NCBI GenBank assembly: GCA_944323205.1
Contig: CALURO010000008.1
Coordinates: forward strand, 42,660 to 106,659
Reading direction: 5' to 3'
Length of the DNA: 64,000 nucleotides
DNA from: an uncultured Mucispirillum sp.
GTDB taxonomy: Bacteria > Chrysiogenota > Deferribacteres > Deferribacterales > Mucispirillaceae
In this document: positions 5,763-22,081 of the stretch, one piece after another
Layout: the number at the start of each line of letters is the position of its first letter
How positions within the stretch are numbered: position 1 is the first letter of the stretch
Position numbers and translations under genes: made by a program
Notes under the pieces: model-generated
What the model was told of the DNA's origin: nothing
Databases searched by the model: none
The model's input: only the letters and a program-made list of their open reading frames with translations

Positions 5763-5769
5763 GTATTCT

Positions 5770-7052: not shown

Positions 7053-7766
7053 TTACTTGTTTTTATCCTTATTCTTTTTTTGTTTCGGTATTCGTTTATG
7101 TATATTTTTATTAACAATAAGTGCACATATAAAAATCATGATGATTGTTGTATAAAAAATGATATATGCATCTCTTATAGTATCAACAGAATTAATCAAA
7201 CCATATAGTACAATTAAGGAACTAATTATTAATATAATAAAATTAAATATGTTTAAAGATGTAACAACATTACTTGTAGTAGAATAATACCCATTTTCAA
7301 ACAGTTTATAATATTGCTGTTTTTCTTGTTGTTCTATTAAATCAATTAGTCTTCTGCTATTTAGTATTTGCATATAAGTATTAATCATATTTAAATATAT
7401 AAATATAAAAAAAGTAAAAGATAATGAAGCAATAAGATAAAATAAGTACCGAGTCATTTCATCTATATTTTTTGTATCCTTTATGTCTTGCAGTATGTCA
7501 TCATAGAATCCTATAACAATTGAAAAGATAGAAAAGAAAAAGGCAATATACCCAAAGTATATTGCAATATTATGATGATAAACACTATAACTTTTTTCTA
7601 GAACATCTTTTTTGTCATCTCCTAAATTAGCAACATAATCCTCTGTAATTAATGATAATGAATTTGTATCATTAATTTGTTTGTGTTTTACAATACGTAT
7701 CATCATACAAATAATTAATATTACAATAGGAATCATAAATAAAATAAATAAAATTAATTCTTGCAT
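7053..7766 (-). CDS. Hypothetical multi-pass (about 5 TM) membrane protein, paralogue A
   Basis: Five hydrophobic segments, basic C-tail, AAGGAG RBS; shares the NM.N.Y..I.N.R...FENGYY segment with 7830..8567. Confidence 0.75.
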   Translation of the reverse strand: MQELILFILFMIPIVILIICMMIRIVKHKQINDTNSLSLITEDYVANLGDDKKDVLEKSYSVYHHNIAIYFGYIAFFFSIFSIVIGFYDDILQDIKDTKNIDEMTRYLFYLIASLSFTFFIFIYLNMINTYMQILNSRRLIDLIEQQEKQQYYKLFENGYYSTTSNVVTSLNIFNFIILIISSLIVLYGLINSVDTIRDAYIIFYTTIIMIFICALIVNKNIHKRIPKQKKNKDKNK

Positions 7767-7829
7767 AATATTTTCTCCTTGAATGATATTTATATAACAA
7801 TATAAACATAAAGCGACAATAGATGTCGC

Positions 7830-8567
7830 TCATTTATCTTTATCTAGTAATTTATATTCTTTTCTATTTTTATACTGCCAGTTAGCAAGTGAAGCCATTA
7901 GTATTATAAGAGTAAATATTAATAATACTGCTAACTCTTTTACATCTTTAGACAGCATAAAAATACCTATAAATATCCATACTGGAGCTATAAATGCAGT
8001 AAATATGGCAAATAAATTTCTGTCATCATCATAATTCTGCTTATAAAAGCCATTTTCAAAAAAATCCATTAAATGCTGTTTTTTATAACTTTCTACCTGC
8101 CTTATATATATGCGGATATTAGCTATTTTATTATAAACATTTTCCATATTGCTGAATAATAAAAATGTAGTTATACCAAATAACAGCGGGATAAAAAACA
8201 ATATATTGATATAATTATAAAATGATGTAAGGATAAAGGCAAATAAACCGCCAAAAATAACCTGCAAAGAAAAGTAAAAAGCAGCTTTTTTCAGCAAAAT
8301 AAAATTTTGGTGCCTGTATTCTTCATAAGCAGCCTCTAAATGCTTATCAAGCACAATGTTTTCCACCACTTTTTTCTTATAAATTCTTTCAAAAAAATTA
8401 TCAAAAGAGATTTCGCTTAAAGCTTTTTTATTCTTTTTATTTACCTGTGATAAATCTTTAAACCTGCATAATGTTAGTATAAACATAGCAGCAGTGAAAA
8501 CAGATAAAAAAGTAACCAGCAGCACTTCAATAATCTCAATCACATTTGTTTGATTAATAAATTCCAT
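7830..8567 (-). CDS. Hypothetical multi-pass (about 5 TM) membrane protein, paralogue B
   Basis: Five hydrophobic segments, basic C-tail; NMENVYNKIANIR...FFENGFY. Confidence 0.75.
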   Translation of the reverse strand: MEFINQTNVIEIIEVLLVTFLSVFTAAMFILTLCRFKDLSQVNKKNKKALSEISFDNFFERIYKKKVVENIVLDKHLEAAYEEYRHQNFILLKKAAFYFSLQVIFGGLFAFILTSFYNYINILFFIPLLFGITTFLLFSNMENVYNKIANIRIYIRQVESYKKQHLMDFFENGFYKQNYDDDRNLFAIFTAFIAPVWIFIGIFMLSKDVKELAVLLIFTLIILMASLANWQYKNRKEYKLLDKDK

Positions 8568-8775
8568 ATATTTTCTACGTTAACTTGACGTTTCAATTAA
8601 ATATATAAGAAAGTTATCTATAAGCCAATATTATTTGATAATGGAAATGCATATTAGATTATTAAAATGATTTAAATAATTTTTAATACTTTAATTGTAT
8701 AAGTAAATTATATTGTAAATTAACTTGAAAAATAAATAATATTACTATAAAATTATAAAAAATATTAGGTGACAA

Positions 8776-11700
8776 ATGAAAAATAATAACTTATCTGAAG
8801 GCATATATGAGGAGCTAATAAATAATCAGTTAAGTAAAATATTAGAAACGAAAACTGATTATATAGTAGAAATAGAAGATATTGACCGTGAAGAAAGTTC
8901 ACTTATTTTATCAAATTATATTGGTCACCTTATTCGTGAAGGATTGCAATATATCCATAAAAGTGATGAAAAAGACAATATAAATAAAAAAGTAGAAATA
9001 ATAAATAAAATTATCAATATATTAGTAGAAAATACTGATGAAGAATATAGTTCATCTATTATTCCAGTGCCTGCACAACAATTACTGTCACTATATAAAA
9101 AAGAAAATAATATAATTTCTATAAATGATAAAATAAAAGTAGAGCGTCCAGTAACTTCTCTATGTCAAAGTTCTCTTTTTACTGGTGCAAAACATGAGCC
9201 GCAATTATTAAATGAAATAAAAAAAGAAATATCTACTTGTCATCAAATTGATATGTTAATTTCTTTTATTAAATATAGTGGTCTAACACTAATGCTTGAT
9301 AAATTAACTGAGTTTACAAATAACGGTGGTAGATTAAGAATTATTACAACTACATATATGAAAGCTACCGATATAAAAGCCATAAATGTATTAAAAACCT
9401 TAAAAAATACAGAAATTAAAATAAATTATAATACTAAATCAACAAGATTACATGCAAAAGCATATATTTTCCATAGAAATACAGATTTCTCTACAGCATA
9501 TGTTGGCTCATCAAATATTTCTGCCCCTGCTATGACAACAGGAACTGAGTGGAATATAAAGATTACTCAAAAAGATATGAGTGATACTTTTGATAAAATG
9601 AAAGCTACTTTTGAAACATATTGGAATGATAAAGAATTTATAGATTATGATGATACTCAAGAAGAAAAATTAGCGGAAGCACTAGATAAGAATATAGATA
9701 ATTTTAATAATTTTTTTGTAGATATTAGACCATACGGATTTCAACAAGAAATATTAGATGCATTACAAGCTGATAGAGAAATAAGAAATCAATATAAAAA
9801 TTTAGTAATTGCAGCAACTGGAACAGGGAAAACGATAATTTCTGCCCTTGATTATAAAAGGTTTTGTGCAAATAACCCACAAAGTGAATGTAGACTTCTT
9901 TTTATTGTACACAGAAAAGAAATTTTAGAGCAAAGTATAGCAACATATCGTGCTGTGTTAAGAGATAATAATTTTGGTGAACTTTATGTAGATGGGAAAA
10001 AACCTACTCAATTAAATTACTTATTTGCATCAATACAGACATTTAATTCTCAAGAGTTAACTAAAAAGACCAGTAAAGATTTTTATGATTATATAGTAAT
10101 AGATGAAACTCACCATGCAAGTGCTGACACATATCAAAAATTATTAGAATATTATGAGCCAAAAATACTTCTTGGTTTAACAGCCACTCCAGAGCGTGCA
10201 GACGGTAAAGATATTTTTAAATATTTTAATCATAGGATAAGTGCAGAAATTAGACTACCAGAAGCTATAGAAAGGGGATTATTATGTCCATTCCATTATT
10301 TTGGTGTCTCTGATAGTATAGATTATAGTGGTATTACTTGGGAACGTGGTAAATATAAAGAAAGTGAGTTAAATGATGTATTTACTATTGATGAAGCATT
10401 TGCAAAAACAAGGGTTAATACTATATTACAGGCTATAGATAAATATATTACAGATATAGATGAAATAAAAGGTGTTGGATTTTGTGTTTCAAAAGAGCAT
10501 GCAATTTATATGAGTAAACAGTTTAATAGTAGAGGCATTAACTCTATTGCATTAACTGCTGATAGTGAAAGTAGTTTACGAAGTGATGCTCGAAGTAAAC
10601 TAAAAAAGGGTGAATATAAATTTATTTTTGTAGTTGATATATATAATGAGGGCGTAGATATTCCAGAAATTAATACAGTGCTTTTTTTAAGACCTACAGA
10701 ATCTCTTACTATATTTTTACAACAATTAGGGAGGGGCTTAAGAAATGCGGATAATAAAGAATTTTTAACAGTGTTAGATTTTATTGGGCATGCACATAAA
10801 AAATATAATTTTGAAGAAAAATTTACTTCTCTTTTACACAAATCAAGACAAAAAATGGAAAATGAATTAAATAAAGGTTTTATATCTCTTCCTAAAGGCT
10901 GTTATATTACATTAGAGAAAAAAGCATCAGAATATATATTAGAAAATATAAAAGGGTATTTTAATAAAAATAATATTCATATAGAAAGATTAAAAACATT
11001 TAAAGAAGATTTTGGTCTTGAACCTACTTTAAAAAATTATCTTGAAAAATATAATCTTGAAGCTGGTAGTATTTATAAAACATTTTCATTTAACCAATTA
11101 TTATTGAAAGCAGGATTAAGAGAAGAATATAATGAGCCACTTTATGAAAATGCATATAAAATACTTGGTAAAATATCTCAAATTAATTCTATAAGATTTA
11201 TTGATTTTATAATTAATATTTTAAATAATAATATTAATATTACAAATGATTTAGAAAAAAGAATGTTGCAAATGTTCCAGTTTACTATAGATAATAATAT
11301 ATCAAAAGATATAACTTTTAATGAAATATTAAATAATGTAAAATTATTTAAAGAAAATAAAATATTATGTTCAGAAATTATTGAGCTATTAGAATACAAT
11401 AAATCAAAAATTGATTTTATAGATAAAAAAATTGATTTAGGTTTTGATTGTCCATTAGATGTTTATTGCAATTACAGTAAAGACCAAATTCTAACAGCTT
11501 GTGATTTTTTAAGTGTAGGAAGTGTACGTGAAGGTGTAAAATATATTGAAAAGAAAAAAATAGATATATTATTTGTAACATTAAATAAATCTGATAAAGA
11601 TTATTCACCAACTACAATGTATAAAGATTATTCATTAAATGAAAAACTTTTCCACTGGCAAAGTCAAAACCAAACAGCAGAAAATAGCACAGTAGGGCAA

Positions 11701-11916
11701 AGATATATTCGCCATAAAGAAACAGATAATAAAATATTACTTTTTGTAAGAGATGAAAAGAAAAATAAATATGGAGAAACAGCAATATATACTTTTTTAG
11801 GCACAGCAAATTATAAATCACATGAAGGTAGTAAACCGATGAGTATAATATGGGAACTTGATTTTCCAATACCTGCAAAATATATAAAAGAAACTCAAAA
11901 AATGGTTGCTATATAG
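8776..11916 (+). CDS. PLD nuclease-SF2 helicase-DUF3427 protein (SauUSI-like candidate modification-dependent restriction enzyme)
   Basis: LHAKAY..AYVGSSN PLD motif; AATGTGKT; IDETHH; GLTATPER; EGVDIP; QQLGRGLR; C-terminal YKDYSLNEKLFHWQSQ. Confidence 0.85.
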   Translation: MKNNNLSEGIYEELINNQLSKILETKTDYIVEIEDIDREESSLILSNYIGHLIREGLQYIHKSDEKDNINKKVEIINKIINILVENTDEEYSSSIIPVPAQQLLSLYKKENNIISINDKIKVERPVTSLCQSSLFTGAKHEPQLLNEIKKEISTCHQIDMLISFIKYSGLTLMLDKLTEFTNNGGRLRIITTTYMKATDIKAINVLKTLKNTEIKINYNTKSTRLHAKAYIFHRNTDFSTAYVGSSNISAPAMTTGTEWNIKITQKDMSDTFDKMKATFETYWNDKEFIDYDDTQEEKLAEALDKNIDNFNNFFVDIRPYGFQQEILDALQADREIRNQYKNLVIAATGTGKTIISALDYKRFCANNPQSECRLLFIVHRKEILEQSIATYRAVLRDNNFGELYVDGKKPTQLNYLFASIQTFNSQELTKKTSKDFYDYIVIDETHHASADTYQKLLEYYEPKILLGLTATPERADGKDIFKYFNHRISAEIRLPEAIERGLLCPFHYFGVSDSIDYSGITWERGKYKESELNDVFTIDEAFAKTRVNTILQAIDKYITDIDEIKGVGFCVSKEHAIYMSKQFNSRGINSIALTADSESSLRSDARSKLKKGEYKFIFVVDIYNEGVDIPEINTVLFLRPTESLTIFLQQLGRGLRNADNKEFLTVLDFIGHAHKKYNFEEKFTSLLHKSRQKMENELNKGFISLPKGCYITLEKKASEYILENIKGYFNKNNIHIERLKTFKEDFGLEPTLKNYLEKYNLEAGSIYKTFSFNQLLLKAGLREEYNEPLYENAYKILGKISQINSIRFIDFIINILNNNINITNDLEKRMLQMFQFTIDNNISKDITFNEILNNVKLFKENKILCSEIIELLEYNKSKIDFIDKKIDLGFDCPLDVYCNYSKDQILTACDFLSVGSVREGVKYIEKKKIDILFVTLNKSDKDYSPTTMYKDYSLNEKLFHWQSQNQTAENSTVGQRYIRHKETDNKILLFVRDEKKNKYGETAIYTFLGTANYKSHEGSKPMSIIWELDFPIPAKYIKETQKMVAI

Positions 11917-11931
11917 TAATGCTTTATTTCT

Positions 11932-12044
11932 GGCACTGTAAAAAATTTTGTGTAATCAAAAAAACTATGTGATAAAAAAGCATAAGGAGAGTTACATGAA
12001 ATTTGAAGAACAGTTAAAACAATTTAAAGAAAGTCTAAATTTTC
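11932..12044 (+). mobile_element. Left end and first codons of an IS256-family element, interrupted by a second IS remnant
   Basis: GGCACTGTAAAAAATTTTGTGTAA end-like sequence, AAGGAG RBS, ATG at 11996 reading MKFEEQLKQFKESLNF up to the next IS end. Confidence 0.5.
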
Positions 12045-12662
12045 GAGCCTGTGAAAAAAAGTCTGTAAATTCAGTTTTCTATGATTATATTTTTACATAT
12101 CCTGCTCTATGAATACCAGAATAAAGTTATTCAGTCAAGAGCAGGTTTATTTTTCACATTTTTATATCCTATTCAGGCAGCCGTCCTTCATACATAATGC
12201 TTAATTCCCCATAAACTTGAGCCCAGTTCCTAATAGTACCAGTCCATTTTTTAGCTGCTTCAAATGTTGCCAAATAAAGAGCCTTTAAAAGTGCTGTATC
12301 ACTTGGAAATACACTCCGTTGACTGTTTAATTTACGATAGACAGAATTTAATGATTCTATTGTATTTGTTGTATATATGACTTTCCTAACTGACATAGAG
12401 AATTTTTAAATATAGGGAAAATACAATCCCAGTTTTCTTTCCACCGCTTCATAGTATTAGGGTATAACTGGAACGCTCTAATTTGCTGTAACCTAAATGG
12501 GTATCTATTTCTGTTTCCATCATCTCTTTAATGGTGCCACCTAACAGGTCTTTTAAGGCTTCTTGAATATCATTAGCTGATTTAATATCATATTCTGATA
12601 ATAAATTCGATATTATTTGACGCTTACCCTCCGTCATTTTACAGACTTTTTTTCACAGGCTC
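12045..12662 (-). mobile_element. Internally deleted IS256-family element, copy 1
   Basis: Perfect 25-bp terminal IR GAGCCTGTGAAAAAAAGTCTGTAAA; transposase N-fragment (DIQEALKDLLGGTIKEMM) and C-fragment (RKVIYTTNTIESLN). Confidence 0.9.
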
Positions 12663-12739
12663 GCTTAACTGTTGCAATCGTTTTTAGAATTTACTCTTAC
12701 AGGATAGACTAAAAATCTGCATTTTTTTAAAATATTTAC

Positions 12740-12769
12740 TTGACAAACTAACTTATTTCTGGTTATAAA
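12740..12769 (+). promoter_or_regulatory. Sigma70-type promoter of tRNA-Arg
   Basis: TTGACA-N18-TATAAA ending 13 bp upstream of the tRNA. Confidence 0.6.
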
Positions 12770-12782
12770 TACAGTCTAATAT

Positions 12783-12856
<74 letters not shown>

Positions 12857-12861
12857 CTTTT

Positions 12862-12891
12862 AAAAAGCCTGCTTATATAAGCAGGTTTTTT
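12862..12891 (+). terminator. Intrinsic terminator after tRNA-Arg
   Basis: CCTGCTTA-TA-TAAGCAGG followed by a T run. Confidence 0.8.
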
Positions 12892-12981
12892 ATTTTTATC
12901 TTTCTGCACTTTTTTAATATCATCAGATTATTACGTCATCTATTGTCGCGCTGATACTGCATTATGTGTTAATATGTATAA

Positions 12982-13009
12982 TTGACAATACAAAAGAATA
13001 CTGTATAAT
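12982..13009 (+). promoter_or_regulatory. Near-consensus sigma70 promoter of the DUF262 pair
   Basis: TTGACA-N16-TATAAT, with AAGGAG RBS before the ATG at 13036. Confidence 0.7.
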
Positions 13010-13035
13010 AAATATATTCTACAAAAGGAGAAGAT

Positions 13036-14985
13036 ATGGGAGAAACATATTCTGAAAATAACAACATATTAGAGTTAAAATCTATTTCTAATATACATAA
13101 TGAAAAATTTATTATTCCCTCTTTCCAGCGTGGTTACAGGTGGGAACCTGTTCAGGTAATTACACTTCTTGAAGATATAAAAGAATATATTGAAAAAAAA
13201 TTAGATACTTTTATGTGCCTGCAGCCAGTTGTATTTTATAAAAAAAATAATAACGATAATAAATTAGAAGAATTAGTTGTTGTAGATGGGCAGCAAAGAC
13301 TTACTACTATTGCTGTAATTAGTAGATGCTTAGGACTTGATAATATAAATATAGAATATAATAAAAATAATAAGGCATTGCAGGATATACTAAATAATGT
13401 AGAAAGCTATCTTAACACAAATAAGATGGATATAAATAACTTATTTAATGACGATAATAAATTATTATTTGAAAAAACTAGTGAAATATATAAAAAGATT
13501 TATCTATCTGCCAGAAACAATTCTGATAAAGTTAATTTATTAGATGAATATTATATTATTTTATCATATTTAACCATTAAATGCTGGCTGGAAAATGAGA
13601 AAAATATAGAAGAAAGTATTAAAAGTATTAAAAATCTTTTCACATCTGATAAAGATAATTTTTCTATTAAATTTATATGGTATGATGTAACTGGGGAAAT
13701 TAATGGTAAAGAAACAAAAGCCATAAATATTTTTACAAGATTAAATATTGGAAAAATAGAACTTACAGATGCGGAACTAATCAAAGCGTTATTTTTGAAA
13801 AAAGATAATTTTAAAGATAGTGAATTAGATAAAAAACTTCATATTGCATATAAATGGGACGAAATAGAAAAAACCTTAAATAATGACAGTTTTTGGTATT
13901 TTTTAAGCAATGATAAAGATAAACCAAAAAAAGATAGAATAGAGCTGGTACTAGAACTTGCAGCAAATATAAAAAATGATGAACAGCATAACCTGTTTAG
14001 AAATTATGAAAATAAATTAAAAAATAAAAATGAACTTGATAAGCACTGGCAGGCTGTTGAAGAATGCTTTATGACATTAAAAGAATGGTATAATGATAAT
14101 GAAATGTATCACTATATAGGCTTTTTATTAAATAATAAACTTGAATCATTAGAAAATATATATACAAATATATATACAAATAAACTTGAATCATTAGATA
14201 ATATATATAAACGTGATATTATTAAAAATAAAGTAATAGAAAAAATTAAAACAAAAATAAATGTAGACGAAGTAAAGAATTATACATATTATAATAATGA
14301 AGAAGAAATAAAATTAATCTTATTTTTTTCAAATATTTATGAAACAATTCATTCTAATCAAGCACGCAACAAAAAAGGTTCTGTAACTGAAACAATAACA
14401 AATAGATTTCCTTTTGATTTATATATTAAAGAGGATTTTGATGTAGAACATATAGCACCACAAACAGAAAATCCATTAAATAATAAAGAAGACCGTATTA
14501 AATGGTTTAAAGACTCTTATGAATATCTAGAAAAAATAGATTTTAGTAAGATAAATGATGATGAAATAAAAAATAATTTAACAGAAGAAAATATTAAAAA
14601 AATAATTGAAAATGAAGATAACAAGAATATAAATAATATTATTTTTAATAGTGAAAAATGGAATATTATATATAACTATATACTTGAAACTGCAATAGAA
14701 AAAGGTAAAAATATTAATTTAGAAGATGAAGAACATTGTTTAGGCAATCTTGTTTTACTGCCAAGAGATATTAATCGTGCGTATAAAAATGCGCTTTTTG
14801 GTATAAAAAGAAAATATATTATAGATAAGGAAACAGAAAAATATAGATTTATCCCTGTTGTTACAAGGCATGCATTTCTAAAATATTATAGTAAAAATAT
14901 TATAGATTTATGGACACAAGAAGATGCAGAACAATTTAAAAAAACAATCATTAATAACTTAAAAGAATTTTTAGGAATTAATTAG
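13036..14985 (+). CDS. DUF262 + DUF1524/HNH protein (GmrSD-like)
   Basis: IPSFQRGYRW, VVDGQQRLTT, FTRLN; C-terminal DVEHIAPQ...LGNLVLLPRDINRAYKN. Confidence 0.85.
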   Translation: MGETYSENNNILELKSISNIHNEKFIIPSFQRGYRWEPVQVITLLEDIKEYIEKKLDTFMCLQPVVFYKKNNNDNKLEELVVVDGQQRLTTIAVISRCLGLDNINIEYNKNNKALQDILNNVESYLNTNKMDINNLFNDDNKLLFEKTSEIYKKIYLSARNNSDKVNLLDEYYIILSYLTIKCWLENEKNIEESIKSIKNLFTSDKDNFSIKFIWYDVTGEINGKETKAINIFTRLNIGKIELTDAELIKALFLKKDNFKDSELDKKLHIAYKWDEIEKTLNNDSFWYFLSNDKDKPKKDRIELVLELAANIKNDEQHNLFRNYENKLKNKNELDKHWQAVEECFMTLKEWYNDNEMYHYIGFLLNNKLESLENIYTNIYTNKLESLDNIYKRDIIKNKVIEKIKTKINVDEVKNYTYYNNEEEIKLILFFSNIYETIHSNQARNKKGSVTETITNRFPFDLYIKEDFDVEHIAPQTENPLNNKEDRIKWFKDSYEYLEKIDFSKINDDEIKNNLTEENIKKIIENEDNKNINNIIFNSEKWNIIYNYILETAIEKGKNINLEDEEHCLGNLVLLPRDINRAYKNALFGIKRKYIIDKETEKYRFIPVVTRHAFLKYYSKNIIDLWTQEDAEQFKKTIINNLKEFLGIN

Positions 14986-14996
14986 GAAGCGCAATT

Positions 14997-17294
14997 ATGA
15001 ATATAAATAATATAAAAGATAATAAGGTAATTATAAAAACATCTAATATATCACAAATAAAAATTCCTATGATACAGCGTGATTATGTGCAAAGCTTAGA
15101 CGATAAAAAATTTAAAAAATTTCTTAATGTTTTAGTTGATGCATTAAATAATGGTACGGAGCTTTCTCTTGATTTTATATATGGCAATATTAATGAAGAT
15201 GGCGTATTTGAACCAATAGATGGGCAGCAAAGATTAACTACTCTTGCTTTATTAACCGTTTATCTGTATTGCAGACAAAGTGAAAATATTTTACAAAACC
15301 CATTTGAATATATAACTTATGCTACAAGACAAAGTGCAAATAATTTCTGCCAGCTTTTAAGAGGTGATAAGTGGAAAAATAAATTTAATGATACTGATAA
15401 TCCATCAAATATAATAAAAAATGACATAAAATATTTTAAAGAATATGATGAAGATACAACTATTTTTGCAATGTTACAAGCATTAGATAAAATCCATAAC
15501 AGTATAAAAAACCAAGATATAGATAGTTTAACAAAAAATATTAGCAATATATCTTTCCATATTTTTCCAATGGAAAGCTTTAATTTATCAGATGATTTAT
15601 ATATAAAAATGAATGGTCGTGGCAAACAGCTTTCAAGTTTTGATAACTTTAAAGCAGATTATTTTAAATGGTTAGAAGAAAATGAAAAAAATATAGCTGA
15701 AGATATAATAGATATAAAAAATAACTTTAATAATAAATATATTGATATCTTTTGGGATTTTACATTTGAAAATAACAATAAAATACCTGACCCTGAAAGC
15801 TTATTTTTTAGGTTTATAAATAGGTTTATTATAGCTAAAAATGATTTATCACAAAACATTATATCTGATAATTTTATTAATGACTCTGAAGACATGAACT
15901 ATATATATAATTCATTTGAAATTTATAAAATAACTTTTCAAAATCATCATAAAGCTTTCATTACTCTTTTAGAGAATCTAACTAAAATTAGCAATATAAA
16001 TGATTATTTTCAACATAATATAGAAAATTATGAAGAAAATACATCTGTGAAATTTAATATATCTGATAAATTAACTTTTAAAACCAGATTTGCATATAAT
16101 TATATAATGAGATTTTTTGAAGAAACAAATTGTACTGAAAAAGTTGATGAAGCTAAAAAATATGCTAGAATTATCTGGAACATTACTGAACAATATTTTA
16201 CTCTAAATGAAGTTAATAAAAATAGTTATATTACAGCTGTTAATGGTATGATACAAGTTGATAATATAAAGTGGGATAATATTTATCATTCATTTCATAA
16301 ATTAGAAATTAAAGAATGCAAAACACATATGCAAAGAATACTTTGTGATGAAATAAAAAAATGCTCTTATATCATAGAAGAACCTGAATTAGAAGAAAAA
16401 TTTAAGACTCTGGAACAACTTCCTTATTTAAATGGTGCTATTGGATTCCTGCTGGGTAAAGATAAAGATGATTTTAATAAAATATATGATACTGCTTTAA
16501 ATGTATTTAGTGAAAATAAACAACACGTATTCAATATATATAATAATAATTATTTACTTAATAGAGCTGTAGTTAAAAAATTATTTGAAGATTCTAGAGA
16601 AAATGATATATTATTCAACCCATTTAATAATAAATTTTTAAAAGAATACTTAATCAGCAGTGAAAATATTCGCGATATTACTCAAAATATTTTATTAAAT
16701 CATAACTCATATCTAATTAATGATAATGAATATACAGATTTTATCTCTAAATATCATAATGATAATGATACTATTACTAAACACATATGTTTATCTGAAA
16801 TATCTGCATTAATTCACTGTAAAATACAAGATAATTATCTAATTAACAAGTATTTTATATTTAAATATAATAATAATATTTACCTGTGTGAAATTAAGTA
16901 TAAAAAATATCAAAATAATTCATCAGATAAAAAAAAATCATCTTTAATCATTGATAATCAAATATGTAAATTATTATATAATATTAAAACATTATTAGAC
17001 AAGAATAAGTCAAATAATGTAGTAGTGTATGAGCCTTTTAATAAAATAGATATTATAGAAAATGAAATATATGGATTTAATAATGTAGCTAGAACCAGGT
17101 ATGATATAAATATAAACTTTAATATAGGCTCTATTAAATATCAATTTTGGATTTCAGGAGATATAATGGCTATAGAAAAATTTGAAAACGATACTTATAA
17201 TTCTATTGAAGTAAAGTCTAATATTAAATATAGTGATATGGAAGATTATAGTAAAAACATGATAAAGCTTATTGAAGAACTTATTGATTCATAA
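14997..17294 (+). CDS. Second DUF262 protein with an unassigned C-terminal half
   Basis: IPMIQRDYVQ, IDGQQRLTTL, YIKMNGRGKQLSSFDNFKA; no EH.PQ motif seen. Confidence 0.8.
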   Translation: MNINNIKDNKVIIKTSNISQIKIPMIQRDYVQSLDDKKFKKFLNVLVDALNNGTELSLDFIYGNINEDGVFEPIDGQQRLTTLALLTVYLYCRQSENILQNPFEYITYATRQSANNFCQLLRGDKWKNKFNDTDNPSNIIKNDIKYFKEYDEDTTIFAMLQALDKIHNSIKNQDIDSLTKNISNISFHIFPMESFNLSDDLYIKMNGRGKQLSSFDNFKADYFKWLEENEKNIAEDIIDIKNNFNNKYIDIFWDFTFENNNKIPDPESLFFRFINRFIIAKNDLSQNIISDNFINDSEDMNYIYNSFEIYKITFQNHHKAFITLLENLTKISNINDYFQHNIENYEENTSVKFNISDKLTFKTRFAYNYIMRFFEETNCTEKVDEAKKYARIIWNITEQYFTLNEVNKNSYITAVNGMIQVDNIKWDNIYHSFHKLEIKECKTHMQRILCDEIKKCSYIIEEPELEEKFKTLEQLPYLNGAIGFLLGKDKDDFNKIYDTALNVFSENKQHVFNIYNNNYLLNRAVVKKLFEDSRENDILFNPFNNKFLKEYLISSENIRDITQNILLNHNSYLINDNEYTDFISKYHNDNDTITKHICLSEISALIHCKIQDNYLINKYFIFKYNNNIYLCEIKYKKYQNNSSDKKKSSLIIDNQICKLLYNIKTLLDKNKSNNVVVYEPFNKIDIIENEIYGFNNVARTRYDININFNIGSIKYQFWISGDIMAIEKFENDTYNSIEVKSNIKYSDMEDYSKNMIKLIEELIDS

Positions 17295-17320
17295 TCATAT
17301 TATCTGTTCAACTTTCACTT

Positions 17321-17337
17321 TTGGCACTATATTTGCT
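17321..17337 (+). promoter_or_regulatory. Sigma54 (-24/-12) promoter candidate
   Basis: TTGGCACTATATTTGCT matches TGGCAC-N5-TTGC, 50 bp upstream of the ATG at 17387. Confidence 0.7.
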
Positions 17338-17386
17338 TCTTAACTAATAATCATAAAAATGTTTTGTTAGTAGTTGGGAGGCAGAT

Positions 17387-17959
17387 ATGGCAGCATTTAT
17401 ATCAATTTTTCTTGCATTTGTTGCAGCACTTGTTAGTGCATTTGCTCTATATACCGTTAAAAATTCCAAAGAAACTGGTGATAATCACTTAGATGAGATT
17501 ATGCGATTAAAACAGCAGATAAATGAAACTAACGACAGGCTGGCACAGCTGAAACATGACCATAATATGTTACAAGACCAGTTTAAAAAATTACAGGAAA
17601 TATCTATTAATAATGATATGCAGGTGCTTTTAAATACTGCAATTAAAGATTATAATGATATTGCAAGTGTTACTCCAGAAGAAGGCAGCATAGGAAAACA
17701 TGAAAAAGCTAGAAAACAGGCAGCTGAAAAAGTATTACAGGCATGTAATGAAGTATGCCAGCGATTTATAGCAGAAGATTTAAGCCACAATACTTTTGCT
17801 TCTGTTTATAAATCACAGCTGCAGGATATACTAAACAGCGATGATTTAAAGGAAATATATTCCAGTCTTAAAAGCAGGTACCCGTATATTGAACGGGTAC
17901 TACTTGCTCCACTTGATGAAAGTATCACTCCAAACTTTGACCAGATTTCTGCAAACTAA
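17387..17959 (+). CDS. Hypothetical membrane-anchored coiled-coil protein
   Basis: N-terminal hydrophobic helix, heptad-rich segment, GGGAGG RBS. Confidence 0.75.
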   Translation: MAAFISIFLAFVAALVSAFALYTVKNSKETGDNHLDEIMRLKQQINETNDRLAQLKHDHNMLQDQFKKLQEISINNDMQVLLNTAIKDYNDIASVTPEEGSIGKHEKARKQAAEKVLQACNEVCQRFIAEDLSHNTFASVYKSQLQDILNSDDLKEIYSSLKSRYPYIERVLLAPLDESITPNFDQISAN

Positions 17960-17983
17960 TCTTTTACAATTATAATATCTCTA

Positions 17984-20101
17984 TTAAAAATATATACCTG
18001 CACCAAAATATGGTGTTGAACCACTGATTGTATCAGTCATCATACTTTCTAAAAATATGTTTAATCTCATACCTGTTCGCTCCATATTTTTATTTTGAAA
18101 TGCAATACCACCACGAAATACGCCACCAAAACTACTTTTACCATTATCTTCAGCAAAATATGCAGCATTTGCTTCACCAAAAAGTAGAAAATTACTTGTT
18201 AAATAAAAATCAATACCTAAACCAAAAGTAAGGCCTGTATCAATTGTATTGTTTGTGTTTGAAGATGAGCGATAATGGTAATCATAATAATCATCATAGT
18301 TATCATCTCTGCCGATATTGTCTTTTAATCCATCAATGCCAAGTATAACGCTTCCATTTATATAAATACCAAACCATCTATTAAAACGCCAGTGTGGCTG
18401 CATTGAAAATTCTACATTCATTATATCAAGATTAAAACCGCCTGCTGCTTGAAAGCCATAAAGCCAGTAACTTGTTTTATAACTGTTTACTAGTTTTACA
18501 GTATCAGAAGTGTTCGGTTTATATACTGTTTTAGAAGTATCATCTGCTTTAATCTGAATATTATTAACTTCCTGCTGTTTTGGTTTAGGGTTAAGTTCCT
18601 GTTCCAATTGTTCATACTGCAAAATCTCTGGAAAAATATCATATTTAGGATTAACAGAAAAAAACTGTTCTTTATTATTACCAAGATGCACTACTCTAAA
18701 ACCTTTTAAATAAGATTTTGCACCTTTTGCTCCATTTGGCTCTAATGCAAATACAGGCACTGCTTTAAAGCTGGCACGGGTATCATACAGAGCTCTAAAT
18801 TCCTGCAGTGATGTAAATTTATATATAAAATTATATTTTTTAGTTTTATATTTCACTATAATAGGCAGCTCTAAATTATCTAAATCACGCTCCCCAAAAT
18901 CTATTACTGCTTTTGAAGTATTACTTGAAACATACATGCCTGTATTATATTTTTTCAGTCTTTCATAAAGGGGCTTTAATGCTTTTAAAAGTGATGTTTT
19001 TGTATCCTTTTCGCTTTTTGCTTTTTTCTCTGCATATTCTGCATTTAAATCTAAAATATCTTGTTTTTTCTTGTTTTCAAAATCTGATTTTCTCTTATTA
19101 TATGCGCTTTTCTTTTCATTATATGTTGCAGTATTATCCCATTCCCCTTTTTTAGGCATTTCTTCTGTAAATTTTTGTTTTTCCAGTATTGCAAGCTGTG
19201 ATTTATGATACATTTCCATATTTTTGCTGTTTGCATTCATTGCCACATTATATTCATTAACAAGGCTGCTGAAATTTGTACGCACCTGAGCTGCGTCCAC
19301 TGCTGTTATTTCAACAGTGTCATTTGCTGCAATATCCATTGTTTTATCATTAATAAGAGCATTTTGTGCAAGCTCTGCTAAAAGTGCCTGATGCTCCATT
19401 TCTGCCTTTGCCTGAGCATCTTTTTCTGCGGCAATCCTTGCCTGTAATTCTGCATCTTTAGCCATATATTCTTTTTGTATCTGTTCCAATTCTTTAGCTG
19501 CCTGTATCTCTTCTGCCTGCTGTCTGCGTTGAGCTTCCATTAACTGCTGCTTAGCATTTGATATTTCTTTTTCCAGCTGTTTCTGCCTTGCTGCTCGTGC
19601 TTTTGCAATATTTGCAGCCTGTGCACTTAATGTTTTATCATACTCTTCTTTAGATGCACTTTTCAATTTCTTTTCAAGAGCAAGTTTTTCCTTTCTTTCC
19701 TGCTCTAATTCCTGCTTTAATGCTTCATTCTGCATAAGCTGCCTTAAAAATGCATCAAGCTCGCCAGAATCAACTGTTGCTTTAACCTGCACAGTTATAT
19801 AAGTCTGCCCTTTTTCTATTTCCTGCTTTAATATTTTAACATCTTTTTGAGCAATAGCACTTGTCTGCATCTTGATTTCATCTTTAGATACTTTGCCGTC
19901 AACTAATACAGTGCTGCTGGATACTGCGACACCTGCTTCTTCTGCCGCCTCTCTAAAAAGTTTTTCACTTATATACTGCTTAACCTGCTCAACAGACTGG
20001 TTTGCAGGAACTACTACTTTCTCTGTTTTTGTAATAGTCTTAATTTCTGCATAAGAATATATTGGTAAAATAAGTAAAAAAATAATAAATAAAATTCGCA
20101 T
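17984..20101 (-). CDS. Exported protein: LPP20/FlgT-N-like domain, long coiled coil and putative C-terminal outer-membrane beta-barrel
   Basis: Signal peptide; REAAEEAGVAVSSST; A/E/K/Q-rich helix; alternating aromatic strands ending YFGAGIYF. Confidence 0.6.
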   Translation of the reverse strand: MRILFIIFLLILPIYSYAEIKTITKTEKVVVPANQSVEQVKQYISEKLFREAAEEAGVAVSSSTVLVDGKVSKDEIKMQTSAIAQKDVKILKQEIEKGQTYITVQVKATVDSGELDAFLRQLMQNEALKQELEQERKEKLALEKKLKSASKEEYDKTLSAQAANIAKARAARQKQLEKEISNAKQQLMEAQRRQQAEEIQAAKELEQIQKEYMAKDAELQARIAAEKDAQAKAEMEHQALLAELAQNALINDKTMDIAANDTVEITAVDAAQVRTNFSSLVNEYNVAMNANSKNMEMYHKSQLAILEKQKFTEEMPKKGEWDNTATYNEKKSAYNKRKSDFENKKKQDILDLNAEYAEKKAKSEKDTKTSLLKALKPLYERLKKYNTGMYVSSNTSKAVIDFGERDLDNLELPIIVKYKTKKYNFIYKFTSLQEFRALYDTRASFKAVPVFALEPNGAKGAKSYLKGFRVVHLGNNKEQFFSVNPKYDIFPEILQYEQLEQELNPKPKQQEVNNIQIKADDTSKTVYKPNTSDTVKLVNSYKTSYWLYGFQAAGGFNLDIMNVEFSMQPHWRFNRWFGIYINGSVILGIDGLKDNIGRDDNYDDYYDYHYRSSSNTNNTIDTGLTFGLGIDFYLTSNFLLFGEANAAYFAEDNGKSSFGGVFRGGIAFQNKNMERTGMRLNIFLESMMTDTISGSTPYFGAGIYF

Positions 20102-20199
20102 AATTGAACCTTTTTTGTAATCTTTTTACTCTATCATACTATTATGAAAAATCAACATTTTTATTTACTGCTTCACCCCTATTTTCTTAAACACCTTAT

Positions 20200-20460
20200 G
20201 TCACTCAGACGAGCGGTTTATGCGAGGACACTTTTTCCCGACTGAATAAGTAGGAAATAGAAATGTGTAGCTGGAAAGAATTTGAAAATAAAAGTTTAAA
20301 TAGATTCTTCACCTACTATCGTAGGCTCTGAATGACAGTGGTATATTGGCAACTATTACCATTTTGTCACTCAGAGGGAGCTTGCGACCGAAGAGTCTAT
20401 AATTTTTACAAGCTAGAACATTATAAGATTCTTCGCCTACTATCGCAGGCTCTGAATGAC
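20200..20460. repeat. Two tandem REP/REPIN-like hairpin units (20200-20336 and 20366-20460)
   Basis: Both start GTCACTCAGA and end GATTCTTC(A/G)CCTACTATCG(T/C)AGGCTCTGAATGAC. Confidence 0.85.
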
Positions 20461-20560
20461 AGTTATTACAATTATTTCTATTTTTACATATATTATAAAG
20501 TAGTTATAGCATTTTTTAATAAAAAATTGGGATAAAGAAGTTTTATTTTATATATATTTC

Positions 20561-20577
20561 ACGACACTATATGTCGT
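20561..20577. promoter_or_regulatory. Palindromic operator candidate upstream of nrdBA (NrdR-box-like, also CGAC-N7-GTCG)
   Basis: ACGACA-CTATA-TGTCGT; the overlapping ACACTATATGTCGTTT fits the NrdR consensus at most positions. Confidence 0.5.
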
Positions 20578-20644
20578 TTAAAAAATTTTATACTAATATA
20601 TCAATATGTTAGTAGACTTAACAAAATTTATACTTGAATTAAAA

Positions 20645-20792
20645 AAAATTTTCTGATAAAAAATAATCAGAGATAAGCGGAAGCAGGTGAGATGCCTGCA
20701 CTGCCCCCGCAACTGTATGCTAGACAAAACCCATTATGCCACTGATATTCGGGAAGGCGGGTAGAGGTTGAAAGCAAGTCAGGATATGCTTA
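20645..20792 (+). ncRNA. Cobalamin (B12) riboswitch
   Basis: GGAAGCAGGTGAGATGCCTGCACTGCCCCCGCAACTGTA, GCCACTG...GGGAAGGC (B12 box), AAGTCAGGA. Confidence 0.9.
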
Positions 20793-20991
20793 ACTCATTC
20801 ATTATTCTTCGGAGGGAAGCCTATGAGAAAAAACTCTATTTAACATTCTTTTTTACACCACATACATACTCTTAACTAACCAGACAGCAAATATTTCTGC
20901 GTGCATTGACCTCGCCCGTATAAATTATATCTGTAAGTCTATCTGGTTAGTTTTCTTATTTAATATAAATATGCTATAAGGAAGTAATTTT

Positions 20992-22074
20992 ATGAACAGT
21001 AAAATATTGGATATTTCTTTCAAACATGAGAAAGAAAAAATTTTTTTTGGTGATTTTGGCCACTATATACGCATAGATAATATAACCCATGAAATTGCAA
21101 GAAAATTAAAAGAAGCCAGTGAAGGCAATACATGGTTTACAAAAGAGATAGACTATAAATCTGACAAAGTCCGTTTTCAAAGTCTGCCAGATGATGCGAA
21201 GCGTGCATTTAAACTAAATATTGCATACCAAACATTAATGGACAGCGGCGTCACAAGCGGACTTAGTTTTGTAATGAGCAGAGTTGTAACAAGCTCTATA
21301 TGGAGCCTTTTATATGCAAGGATAGCTATAGAAGAAGCAATACATGCAGAATCTTATTCTTATGGCTTATCAGAAGTTTTTGGCCATGAAGCAGCTGAAA
21401 CTTTAGATTTAGTGTATAATGATAACTTTGTAAAAAGACGCATGGAAAAAGAGTGTATGCTTTTTGATAATGTATCTGATTTATGCTTATCTGATGATAC
21501 ATCTGTTAATCTCGATGATAAAAAGAAAGCACTTTTAAGCCTGCTTTTAGGTATATATTACTTAGAAGGTATAAAATTCCCTTTTTCATTTTTAGTTACT
21601 TTCATAATAAATAACAGCTACAATGACGCCATTACTGGCTTTACTAAAACTATTAAGCTGATAGCCCATGATGAACTTTCTGTCCATGTGGTAACTGGCA
21701 AAAATATATTAAATATTTTAGCCCGTGATGAAAATGAAGGGTTTAAGCATCTTTTTGATAACGGATTTTTCAGAGAAACTGCATTAAGCATAGTTAGTGA
21801 AGTAGTTAATCAGGAAATAGAATGGGCAAAATATCTTTTTGATGGTTTTCATGTAGCAGGTATAAACAGCCAGATATCAGAAAATTTTATTAAATACTGG
21901 GCAAATATCCGCCTTAAAGATATAGGCATAGCAGATAACCCATATATGAAAGAAGAAAAAACAGATATTATTGAATGGTTTAATAATTACAGAAATATTA
22001 ACAAGCAGAATGCAGCATTACAGGAAACCTCAAACACATCTTACCAAAAAGGTGTATTGAAAAACGATTTATAG
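20992..22074 (+). CDS. nrdB: Class I ribonucleotide reductase beta subunit
   Basis: YQTLMDS, EEAIHAESY (radical Tyr), LEGIKF, HDELSVH; C-terminal QETSNTSY. Confidence 0.92.
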   Translation: MNSKILDISFKHEKEKIFFGDFGHYIRIDNITHEIARKLKEASEGNTWFTKEIDYKSDKVRFQSLPDDAKRAFKLNIAYQTLMDSGVTSGLSFVMSRVVTSSIWSLLYARIAIEEAIHAESYSYGLSEVFGHEAAETLDLVYNDNFVKRRMEKECMLFDNVSDLCLSDDTSVNLDDKKKALLSLLLGIYYLEGIKFPFSFLVTFIINNSYNDAITGFTKTIKLIAHDELSVHVVTGKNILNILARDENEGFKHLFDNGFFRETALSIVSEVVNQEIEWAKYLFDGFHVAGINSQISENFIKYWANIRLKDIGIADNPYMKEEKTDIIEWFNNYRNINKQNAALQETSNTSYQKGVLKNDL

Positions 22075-22081
22075 GTGTAAA

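What the first reader, a model, noticed from the sequence alone, without database searches (positions are those of the whole stretch)
7812..20577. Recurrent CGAC-N7-GTCG palindrome in three upstream regions: possible regulon linking defence genes and ribonucleotide reductase
Seen: GCGACATCTATTGTCGC (7813-7829, minus strand, 46 bp before paralogue A), ACGTCATCTATTGTCGC (12933-12949, 32 bp upstream of the -35 of the DUF262 promoter) and ACGACATATAGTGTCGT (20561-20577, minus strand, upstream of the nrdBA leader). Consensus RCGACATMTAKTGTCGY. All three are intergenic, in very CG-poor DNA. Established, as I recall it: the ssDNA-sensing WYL activator DriD binds ATACGAC-N7-GTCGTAT, and WYL regulators often control defence loci. 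Inference: a DNA-damage or phage-responsive regulator co-controls these promoters. Alternatives: site 1 may be a terminator hairpin and site 3 also fits an NrdR box.
Basis: partly seen in the sequence, partly recalled or inferred. Interest (0 to 1): 0.7.

Follow-up and report, generated by a model that had tools for sequence, protein, structure and literature searches.

The report
WYL (DriD/DdaA-type) regulator binding sites
The three palindromes are very probably binding sites of this gut Mucispirillum's single WYL-type DNA-damage regulator, which appears to co-control DNA-repair, nucleotide-supply and anti-phage genes, as already shown experimentally for related regulators in Caulobacter and Acinetobacter.

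Summary
CGAC-N7-GTCG occurs 7 times in the 2.36-Mb genome against 0.19 expected. Only the 7-bp spacing is enriched, and all 7 copies lie in the roughly 10% of the genome that is intergenic.

The genome, a Mucispirillum (Deferribacterota), has one HTH-WYL gene, on contig C2 outside the window. The motif sits 36-37 bp upstream of its start codon, and it is present in the promoters of all 11 orthologues in the genus.

Across 13 Mucispirillum species, 50 of the 57 exact sites have the extended form CGACA-N5-TGTCG. They recur upstream of recA, an AddB-like nuclease, a 5'-deoxynucleotidase-like HD gene and defence genes (an SNF2 helicase, McrB-like, hsdM and hsdR, GmrSD).

The motif matches the published operators of DriD (ATACGAC-N7-GTCGTAT) and DdaA (CGWCA-N5-TGWCG). 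DdaA activates both DNA-damage and anti-phage genes. The predicted structure's best PDB matches are DriD.

Two alternatives fail. NrdR is absent from the genome. LexA is present in the one complete genome that lacks both the WYL gene and the motif, and the lexA promoter carries a different palindrome. Site 1 may also act as a terminator.

This is a new member of a known kind, of moderate interest.

The parts
7813..7829 (-). Site 1: GCGACATCTATTGTCGC. Predicted WYL operator 46 bp before paralogue A, and also a possible terminator hairpin for paralogue B.
   Evidence: Sequence. Exact CGACA-N5-TGTCG. The identical 17-mer occurs at C7:65740. The same site lies 47 bp before the orthologous gene in relative G017 (L075). 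Terminator-like: 8-pair stem, centroid -11.4 kcal/mol, tail UUUAUGUUU.
7053..7766 (-). Paralogue A (237 aa, no family match), the predicted target gene of site 1.
   Evidence: ORF. No Pfam or PADLOC match.
7830..8567 (-). Paralogue B (245 aa). Its stop codon abuts site 1.
12783..12856 (+). tRNA gene, followed by its terminator (12861-12892), bordering the DUF262 cassette.
   Evidence: Rfam tRNA match. Terminator scan.
12933..12949 (+). Site 2: ACGTCATCTATTGTCGC. Predicted WYL operator with a CGTCA distal arm, which the DdaA consensus CGWCA allows.
   Evidence: Sequence. It cannot form a hairpin. A motif version is kept at the same place upstream of the DUF262 gene in 4 other species while the flanks diverge: CGTCATCTATTGTCG, CGACATCTATTGTCA, GCCACCTATTATCGC, CGCCACCTATTGTCG.
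12982..13009 (+). Consensus sigma-70-type promoter TTGACA-16-TATAAT of the DUF262 operon. The centre of site 2 lies about 75 bp upstream of its inferred transcription start.
13036..17294 (+). Two DUF262/GmrSD-family genes (649 and 765 aa), a type IV restriction-like defence cassette.
   Evidence: Pfam GmrSD_N at 4.9e-27 and 3.3e-18. PADLOC SspE/Orf5/HEC-06-like for the first gene.
20561..20577 (+). Site 3: ACGACACTATATGTCGT. Predicted WYL operator upstream of the nrdBA leader.
   Evidence: Sequence. Exact CGACA-N5-TGTCG. In the alignment of 12 genus genomes this position keeps a degenerate rCGACA-N5-TGTCGy or AGACA-N5-TGTCT palindrome at a fixed distance from the conserved TAyTAATATAT block. 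No nrdR gene in the genome.
20590..20600 (+). Candidate -10 elements of a distal, site-3-dependent promoter: TATACT 12 nt and TAATAT 17 nt after the site.
   Evidence: Sequence. Block conserved in the genus. This assignment is an inference.
20634..20662 (+). Conserved proximal promoter TTGAAT-17-TAAAAA (with TG before the -10), just ahead of the riboswitch core.
   Evidence: Conserved in all 12 aligned genomes. Read by eye; the scan listed a neighbouring register.
20628..20807 (+). Cobalamin riboswitch in the nrdBA leader.
   Evidence: Rfam RF00174, 79.8 bits, E 5e-18.
20992..24355 (+). nrdB (360 aa) and nrdA (757 aa), a class I ribonucleotide reductase.
   Evidence: Pfam Ribonuc_red_sm at 3.4e-31 and Ribonuc_red_lgC at 1.4e-132.

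Best explanation
The RCGACA-N5-TGTCGY palindromes are operators of the genome's single wHTH-WYL regulator, a homologue of Caulobacter DriD and Acinetobacter DdaA. The gene lies outside the window at G000:C2:158152-159069.

By analogy with DriD and DdaA, the homodimer reads the two guanines of each CGAC/GTCG half-site with two arginines of its recognition helix. Here these would be the invariant R40 and R44. It would be switched on when its WYL domain binds single-stranded DNA, which is produced by DNA damage or by phage attack. It would then recruit RNA polymerase to promoters that lack a good -35 element.

In this species the predicted regulon contains:
- the regulator itself;
- an AddB-like nuclease;
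- a small Cys-rich protein;
- the membrane paralogue A (site 1);
- the GmrSD/DUF262 cassette (site 2);
- a KAP-NTPase gene next to hsdM, a PDC-S26 gene pair and an SNF2 helicase;
- probably the class I RNR operon nrdBA (site 3), where the site would add a damage-inducible promoter upstream of the B12 riboswitch.

What is shown: the motif statistics, its conservation, its link to the WYL gene and the homology of the regulator. What is inferred: binding, ssDNA sensing and the sign of regulation (activation).
For: 1. Non-random, position-specific motif. There are 7 exact sites against 0.19 expected, only the 7-bp spacing is enriched, and all 7 are intergenic.

2. Unselected positions agree. Of 57 exact CGAC-N7-GTCG sites in 13 Mucispirillum species, 50 have A at position 5 and T at position 11, and the flanking bases are R and Y. 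Of 48 distinct sites inspected, 44 are intergenic.

3. Link to the regulator.
- The genome has only one WYL gene.
- The motif is in its promoter in all 11 orthologues, and in 5 of 9 remote homologues from other Deferribacterales families.
- The one complete genus genome without the WYL gene (G010) has no site, although it has LexA.
- Eight genomes of sister genera have 3 sites in total.

4. The motif equals the experimentally defined operators: DriD ATACGAC-N7-GTCGTAT (PMC10853764) and DdaA CGWCA-N5-TGWCG (PMC12392091).

5. The regulator resembles DriD.
- Pfam WYL at 7.5e-12 and HTH_11 at 9.6e-5.
- AlphaFold model with pLDDT 72.6.
- Top Foldseek PDB hits are DriD (8tp8, E 5e-12), ahead of PafBC, BrxR and CapW.
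- R40-x-x-Q43-R44 is invariant in the predicted recognition helix, against DriD R37-x-x-E40-R41.

6. The regulon content is typical of this family. Sites recur before recA (8 species), AddB-like (6), HD 5'-deoxynucleotidase-like (7), SNF2 helicase (6), McrB-like, hsdM and hsdR. This parallels DdaA's control of recA, a dGTPase, restriction-modification, Zorya and CRISPR.

7. Geometry. TAnnnT hexamers are enriched 10-16 nt downstream of the site on the gene side, 43 against 8 on the far side. This places the site over the -35 position, as for DriD (PMC13004042).

8. Sites 2 and 3 are conserved in position in other species while their flanks change.
Against: - There is no binding or expression data for this organism.
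- Sequence searches did not align the protein to DriD. PDB profile hits were only marginal matches to PafBC, so the arginine correspondence rests on pattern and predicted helix position.
- The model's linker (residues 71-125) has low confidence.
- Site 3 is exact only in this species. Relatives have 1-4 mismatches there. It lies about 100 bp upstream of the start of the conserved proximal promoter.
- Site 2 lies about 75 bp upstream of a consensus promoter that should not need an activator.
- Site 1 also scores as a terminator.
- The recA site has decayed in this genome (GATACATTTAATATTGC).
- G012 has 4 sites but no detectable WYL gene; it is a fragmented assembly. G013 has the gene but no exact site.
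- The -10 assignments in this AT-rich DNA are ambiguous. The promoters counted are partly orthologous, so they are not independent.
Confidence: 0.8

Rival explanations
1. The same WYL protein binds the sites but acts as a repressor, as BrxR and CapW do. It would keep defence and repair genes off until ssDNA releases it.
For: BrxR and CapW are WYL repressors of defence loci and are also structural neighbours (PMC11662680 listed). Several sites overlap the core promoter region, 10-16 nt before -10-like hexamers. The SNF2 site lies downstream of a promoter-like TTGAAA...TACAAT.
Against: The best structural matches, and the identical operator, belong to the activators DriD and DdaA. Target promoters lack a good -35, which is typical of activator-dependent promoters.
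Confidence: 0.15
2. The palindromes are RNA hairpins: intrinsic terminators or stability elements between genes, not protein-binding sites.
For: Site 1 and the C7 copy fold into 8-11 bp stems (-11 to -15 kcal/mol, z about -4). Site 1 is followed by a U-rich tail directly after paralogue B. Many recA sites lie 7-16 bp after the preceding gene.
Against: Site 2 cannot fold (-2.7 kcal/mol, worse than shuffles). Several sites sit in divergent promoter regions with no upstream gene to terminate, namely WYL/comEC and HD/Hpt. The stem sequence itself, not merely its complementarity, is fixed as CGACA/TGTCG across 50 sites. The motif is absent from the genome that lacks the WYL gene.
Confidence: 0.03
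3. Site 3 is an NrdR box and unrelated to sites 1 and 2.
For: It is a palindrome with an AT-rich centre upstream of an nrd operon, and its left half resembles the NrdR box as recalled from the literature.
Against: TIGR00244 (NrdR) has no match in this 98%-complete genome, while it is found in 9 of 14 control genomes. There is no tandem second box at the usual spacing.
Confidence: 0.02
4. The motif is the LexA (SOS) box of Mucispirillum.
For: LexA is present, and the motif precedes recA and repair genes in the genus.
Against: G010 has LexA but no site. The lexA promoters of 10 species carry a different conserved palindrome, TGTTC-N4-GAACA, right after the -10, and no CGAC-N7-GTCG.
Confidence: 0.02

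Closest known systems
DdaA, the WYL activator of Moraxellaceae/Acinetobacter (Song et al., NAR 2025, PMC12392091)
   Same: The operator CGWCA-N5-TGWCG is the extended motif seen here, and its W position covers the CGTCA arm of site 2. It has wHTH-WYL-WCX architecture. Its regulon mixes DNA-damage genes (recA, a dGTPase) with anti-phage systems (restriction-modification, Zorya, CRISPR). It is self-regulated and coexists with LexA in basal lineages. A homologue from Chrysiogenes binds the motif in vitro.
   Different: The organism here is a Deferribacterota gut bacterium. The predicted targets differ: GmrSD/DUF262, KAP-NTPase, PDC-S26, a membrane paralogue, a small Cys-rich protein, and a B12-riboswitch-controlled nrdBA. 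LexA is retained. recA is a target in most Mucispirillum species but its site has decayed in this one. Placement in the DdaA clade rather than the DriD clade was not tested, because no DdaA sequence was at hand. [quoted passage not shown]
DriD, the Caulobacter crescentus WYL activator (PMC9186387, PMC10853764, PMC13004042)
   Same: The consensus ATACGAC-N7-GTCGTAT matches; one relative's AddB site is exactly ATACGACACTTATTGTCGTAT. It is autoregulated and controls recA. Two arginines four residues apart read the guanines. Its site overlaps the -35 position at a fixed distance from the -10. It gives the best structural matches to the model.
   Different: Aligned identity is only 12-16%, and no sequence-level hit was obtained. 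Glu40 of DriD is Gln43 here. The DriD regulon described in those papers has no defence genes. The ssDNA effector and the contacts of the helical-bundle linker with RNA polymerase are only assumed here, and the linker is the low-confidence part of the model.
PafBC (mycobacteria) and BrxR/CapW (defence-island WYL repressors)
   Same: They share WYL-domain sensing of ssDNA and control DNA-damage genes (PafBC) or defence genes (BrxR, CapW). They are structural neighbours.
   Different: PafBC is a heterodimer or fusion protein that uses a -26 element and sigma adaptation. BrxR and CapW are local repressors encoded beside their own system and have other operators. Here one unlinked regulator has sites dispersed over the genome.

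Membership tests
DriD/DdaA-type homodimeric WYL transcription activators | N-terminal winged HTH, WYL domain and C-terminal extension in a protein of about 300 aa | tested here: met
   305 aa. Pfam WYL at 7.5e-12; HTH_11 at 9.6e-5, below its cut-off. The AF2 model shows H-H-H-wing, helical linker, beta-barrel and C-terminal domain. Foldseek top hits are full-length DriD.
DriD/DdaA-type homodimeric WYL transcription activators | Palindromic operator CGAC-N7-GTCG / CGWCA-N5-TGWCG | tested here: met
   Genome-wide and genus-wide motif. Published motifs. Physical binding was not tested.
DriD/DdaA-type homodimeric WYL transcription activators | Motif in the regulator's own promoter (autoregulation; true for DriD and for basal DdaA lineages) | tested here: met
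   Present in 11 of 11 orthologue promoters in the genus and in 5 of 9 remote homologues in the order.
DriD/DdaA-type homodimeric WYL transcription activators | Two base-reading arginines in the recognition helix (DriD R37 and R41) | tested here: inconclusive
   R40 and R44 are invariant in 14 orthologues and lie at the start of the predicted helix 39-53. No residue-level alignment to DriD could be obtained.
DriD/DdaA-type homodimeric WYL transcription activators | DNA-damage genes such as recA in the regulon | tested here: met
   recA in 8 species and AddB-like in 6, including this genome. The recA site has decayed in this genome.
DriD/DdaA-type homodimeric WYL transcription activators | ssDNA binding by the WYL domain switches on DNA binding or activation | not testable with these tools
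   Only the canonical F-W-Y-L motif and the invariant R185/Y187/R188 were seen.
DriD/DdaA-type homodimeric WYL transcription activators | Activation (not repression) from a site over the -35 position | tested here: inconclusive
   TAnnnT is enriched 10-16 nt downstream of the sites. The -10 assignments are ambiguous, and sites 2 and 3 also lie far upstream of strong or conserved promoters.
DdaA clade specifically (as against the DriD clade) | Phylogenetic placement with DdaA; Ala in place of the first ssDNA-contacting Arg | not tested
NrdR box (site 3) | An nrdR gene in the genome | tested here: not met
   TIGR00244 has no match in the genome's own assembly, which is 98% complete.
LexA/SOS box | Motif present wherever LexA is, and in the lexA promoter | tested here: not met
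   G010 has LexA but no site. The lexA promoters carry TGTTC-N4-GAACA instead.
Intrinsic terminator (site 1) | Stable G+C-containing hairpin followed by a U tract, downstream of a gene | tested here: met
   8-pair stem, -11.4 kcal/mol, tail UUUAUGUUU, directly after paralogue B. Not met by site 2. Site 3 has a weak stem and no upstream gene end.

The most novel reading that the evidence does not exclude
In this Mucispirillum species the DriD/DdaA-type regulon may have shifted from DNA repair towards immunity and dNTP supply. recA has dropped out. At least five of about ten sites precede defence genes: GmrSD, a KAP-NTPase gene next to hsdM, a PDC-S26 pair, an SNF2 helicase and a membrane paralogue beside a type IV restriction enzyme. 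One site stacks an ssDNA-inducible promoter on top of a B12 riboswitch for the class I RNR. The regulator would then act mainly as an ssDNA-triggered phage alarm that runs alongside an intact LexA system.
Probability: 0.3. Interest if true: 0.6.

Novelty: new member of a known kind. Interest (0 to 1): 0.42.

Why it matters
This analysis gives it a testable DNA-damage and phage-alarm regulon.

It extends the DriD/DdaA operator-regulator pair to the phylum Deferribacterota. The pairing of repair genes with dispersed defence islands, shown experimentally only in Moraxellaceae, appears to recur in a distant phylum that still has LexA.

It also predicts a two-layer control of a class I ribonucleotide reductase: a damage-responsive promoter plus a B12 riboswitch.

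Finally, it documents rapid turnover of regulon membership between sister species, with recA gained or lost and defence cassettes carrying their own operator.

Tried and rejected
- **PDB sequence searches.** phmmer and hmmsearch of the WYL protein, its profile and its N-terminal domain found no DriD alignment, only marginal PafBC hits. The link to DriD therefore rests on fold search.
- **Word-indexed homologue search.** It returned only Mucispirillum-like proteins with at least 52% identity, so the DdaA-versus-DriD clade could not be resolved.
- **PWM scan.** The matrix was built from the sites it then ranks, so it is circular for the top 7. I used only the ranking of the lower tier and the intergenic fraction.
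- **Built-in control of the genome search.** The control is the pattern read backwards. It has no CpG and is far commoner in this CpG-depleted genome, so it is not a valid control. I used 4-mer-based expectation and other spacings instead.
- **-10 assignment by eye.** It gave spacings of 10 to 17 nt and is ambiguous in 70% A+T DNA. Only the positional enrichment is reported.
- **Near-match at 20239-20253** (CGACTGAATAAGTAG). I treated it as chance: its right arm is broken, and it lies beside the repeat units at about 20300-20465.
- **Lower-tier sites.** C10:45071, C9:5412, C4:6837 and C6:40336 were left undecided.

Full report
**Observation**

- Site 1 (7813-7829) reads GCGACATCTATTGTCGC towards paralogue A. 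It lies 46 bp before that gene's ATG and immediately after the stop codon of paralogue B.
- Site 2 (12933-12949, ACGTCATCTATTGTCGC) follows a tRNA gene and its terminator. It lies 32 bp upstream of a consensus TTGACA-16-TATAAT promoter of the first DUF262/GmrSD gene.
- Site 3 (20561-20577, ACGACACTATATGTCGT) lies upstream of a cobalamin riboswitch (20628-20807; 79.8 bits) and nrdB-nrdA. These genes are on the + strand.

**Is it more than chance?**

The window belongs to a 2.36-Mb genome with 31.5% G+C and CpG observed/expected of 0.45.
- From the frequencies of CGAC and GTCG, 0.19 exact CGAC-N7-GTCG are expected genome-wide. Seven occur.
- Every other spacing from 0 to 15 gives 0 or 1.
- All seven lie in the 9.7% of the genome outside long ORFs.
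- Five genomic copies share not only the arms but most of the spacer (GCGACAATAG[A/G/T]TGTCGY). Two weaker copies keep the GCGACAATA half.

**Finding the regulator**

One of the seven sites (GCGACTTGTATTGTCGC) lies 36-37 bp upstream of a 305-aa ORF with an HTH and a WYL domain. A whole-genome search shows that this is the only WYL protein encoded.

Titles of related contigs identify the organism as Mucispirillum, phylum Deferribacterota. All 11 orthologues of the regulator in the genus have a version of the motif at the same place:
- [G/A]CG[A/T]CTTGTATTGTCGC in six species;
- GCGACATCTATTGACG[C/T] in four;
- GAGACATTGTTTGTCGT in one.

Remote homologues (E 1e-30 to 1e-39) in other Deferribacterales families carry GCGACA-N5-TGTCGC upstream in 5 of 9 loci inspected.

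**Genus-wide regulon**

Thirteen species genomes hold 57 exact CGAC-N7-GTCG sites. Fifty of them have the extended form CGACA-N5-TGTCG, although positions 5 and 11 were not part of the query. The flanking bases are R and Y. Of 48 distinct sites inspected, 44 are intergenic.

Genes facing the sites cluster into recurrent families:
- recA in 8 species, with the site about 44 bp before the ATG;
- a 5'-deoxynucleotidase-like HD gene, divergent from an Hpt gene, in 7;
- an AddB-like PD-(D/E)XK nuclease in 6, including this genome;
- an SNF2 helicase in 6, including this genome;
- a double-AAA ATPase in 4 and a McrB-like protein in 3;
- hsdM, hsdR and paralogue A.

In this genome further sites precede a KAP-NTPase gene (PDC-S20/PifA-like) next to hsdM, a PDC-S26 gene pair, and a 34-aa Cys-rich ORF. 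Site 2 is kept upstream of the DUF262 gene in four other species although the surrounding sequence differs.

At the site-3 position, the alignment of 12 nrdB upstream regions shows a degenerate palindrome (rCGACA-N5-TGTCGy, or AGACA-N5-TGTCT in the distant species). There are no indels between it and a conserved TAyTAATATAT block. A second conserved promoter, TTGAAT-17-TAAAAA, follows just before the riboswitch.

**Phyletic test**
- G010, a complete one-contig genome, lacks the WYL gene and has no site.
- Eight genomes of sister genera without the orthologue have three sites in total.
- There are two exceptions, both fragmented assemblies. G012 has 4 sites and no detectable WYL gene. G013 has the gene but no exact site.

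**Rivals**
- **NrdR.** TIGR00244 has no match in this 98%-complete genome.
- **LexA.** It is present here and in G010. The lexA promoters of 10 species carry a different conserved palindrome (TGTTC-N4-GAACA) and no CGAC-N7-GTCG.
- **Terminators.** Site 1 and the C7 copy do fold well, and site 1 has a U-rich tail, so a dual role at site 1 is plausible. However, site 2 cannot fold. Several sites lie in divergent promoter regions. The arm sequence itself, rather than its pairing, is what is conserved.

**Comparison with what is known**

The consensus is ATACGAC-N7-GTCGTAT, the guanines are read by Arg37 and Arg41, and Glu40 contacts C1 (PMC10853764).

A 2025 paper describes DdaA, a sister clade of DriD, with the operator CGWCA-N5-TGWCG.
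- It activates recA, a dGTPase and other damage genes, as well as restriction-modification, Zorya and CRISPR-Cas systems.
- It coexists with LexA, and regulates itself, in basal lineages.
- Homologues from Chrysiogenes, Geoalkalibacter and Haemophilus bind the motif in vitro (PMC12392091).

The Mucispirillum protein has an invariant R40-S-A-Q43-R44 at the start of its predicted recognition helix and a canonical FWYL motif. Its AlphaFold model (pLDDT 72.6, with a weak linker at residues 71-125) matches DriD structures best (8tp8, E 5e-12), ahead of PafBC, BrxR and CapW. Sequence-only searches did not reach DriD.

**Mechanism**

On the gene-proximal side of the sites, TAnnnT hexamers are enriched 10-16 nt downstream, 43 against 8 on the far side. 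The promoters counted are partly orthologous, so they are not independent. This places the proximal half-site over the -35 position.

That matches the DriD cryo-EM work. There the DriD site sits at a fixed distance from the -10, the promoters lack a good -35, and DriD recruits RNA polymerase through the alpha-CTD and beta (PMC13004042).

I therefore favour ssDNA-triggered activation. Repression by the same protein, as with BrxR and CapW, is the main alternative.

The geometry of sites 2 and 3 is less clear. Each lies far upstream of a good promoter, with its centre about 75 bp (site 2) and about 100 bp (site 3) before the inferred start. Each may instead drive a weak promoter of its own.

**Verdict**

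The object is a new member of a known kind: a DriD/DdaA-type WYL regulon in Mucispirillum. My confidence that the sites are WYL operators is about 0.8 overall: roughly 0.8 for site 1, 0.7 for site 2 and 0.6 for site 3. Nothing here has been tested at the bench.

Noticed in passing
G000:C7:65594-65756 (L001 about 2854-3017): The best palindrome in the genome (TATATGCGACATCTATTGTCGCATATA) lies 44 bp before a 34-aa Cys-rich ORF, MAFYCKYCGRDYKDVKYMLTCSCPKSPTKKHELL. Relatives encode a 73-aa protein made of two such CxxCG...SPTKKH modules, with a more or less degenerate motif at the same upstream position. By analogy with the small division inhibitors under DriD control, it might be a damage-induced small effector.
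   Followed up: partly
G000:C13, about 28210-28290 (recA upstream): The recA operator found in 8 other Mucispirillum species has decayed in this genome to GATACATTTAATATTGC, with four core mismatches. recA has probably left the regulon in this species.
   Followed up: partly
G000:C7:143155 (lexA promoter; L010): A conserved palindrome TGTTCTAGTGAACA lies directly after the -10 of lexA in 10 species. It is a candidate LexA box of Mucispirillum. In this genome it is the only intergenic copy of GTTC-N4-GAAC.
   Followed up: partly
window 20300-20465: Two copies of a REP-like unit of about 35 bp (ttcacctactatcgtaggctctgaatgacag / ttcgcctactatcgcaggctctgaatgacag) lie between the 705-aa gene and site 3. 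A similar TCGCCTACTATCGTAGC occurs on contig C11.
   Followed up: no
window 8776-11916 (+): A 1046-aa protein with PLD-nuclease, helicase and DUF3427 domains matches the PADLOC type IV methyl-directed restriction enzyme model (E 7e-220). It is divergent from the paralogue pair. No motif was found in its own upstream region.
   Followed up: no
G010 (relative genome, one contig): This complete Mucispirillum genome lacks the WYL regulator, the motif and also nrdB, so it has no class I RNR match.
   Followed up: no
G000:C6:40336 and C9:57782: Lower-tier or atypically placed sites. AAGCCATCTAATGTCGC lies 53 bp before a 716-aa kinase-phosphatase-ligase (Pnkp-like) gene. An exact site lies between a 1052-aa P-loop protein and the SNF2 helicase, downstream of a promoter-like element.
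   Followed up: partly
window 5644-6894 (+): A 416-aa WD40 beta-propeller protein lies just upstream of the island.
   Followed up: no
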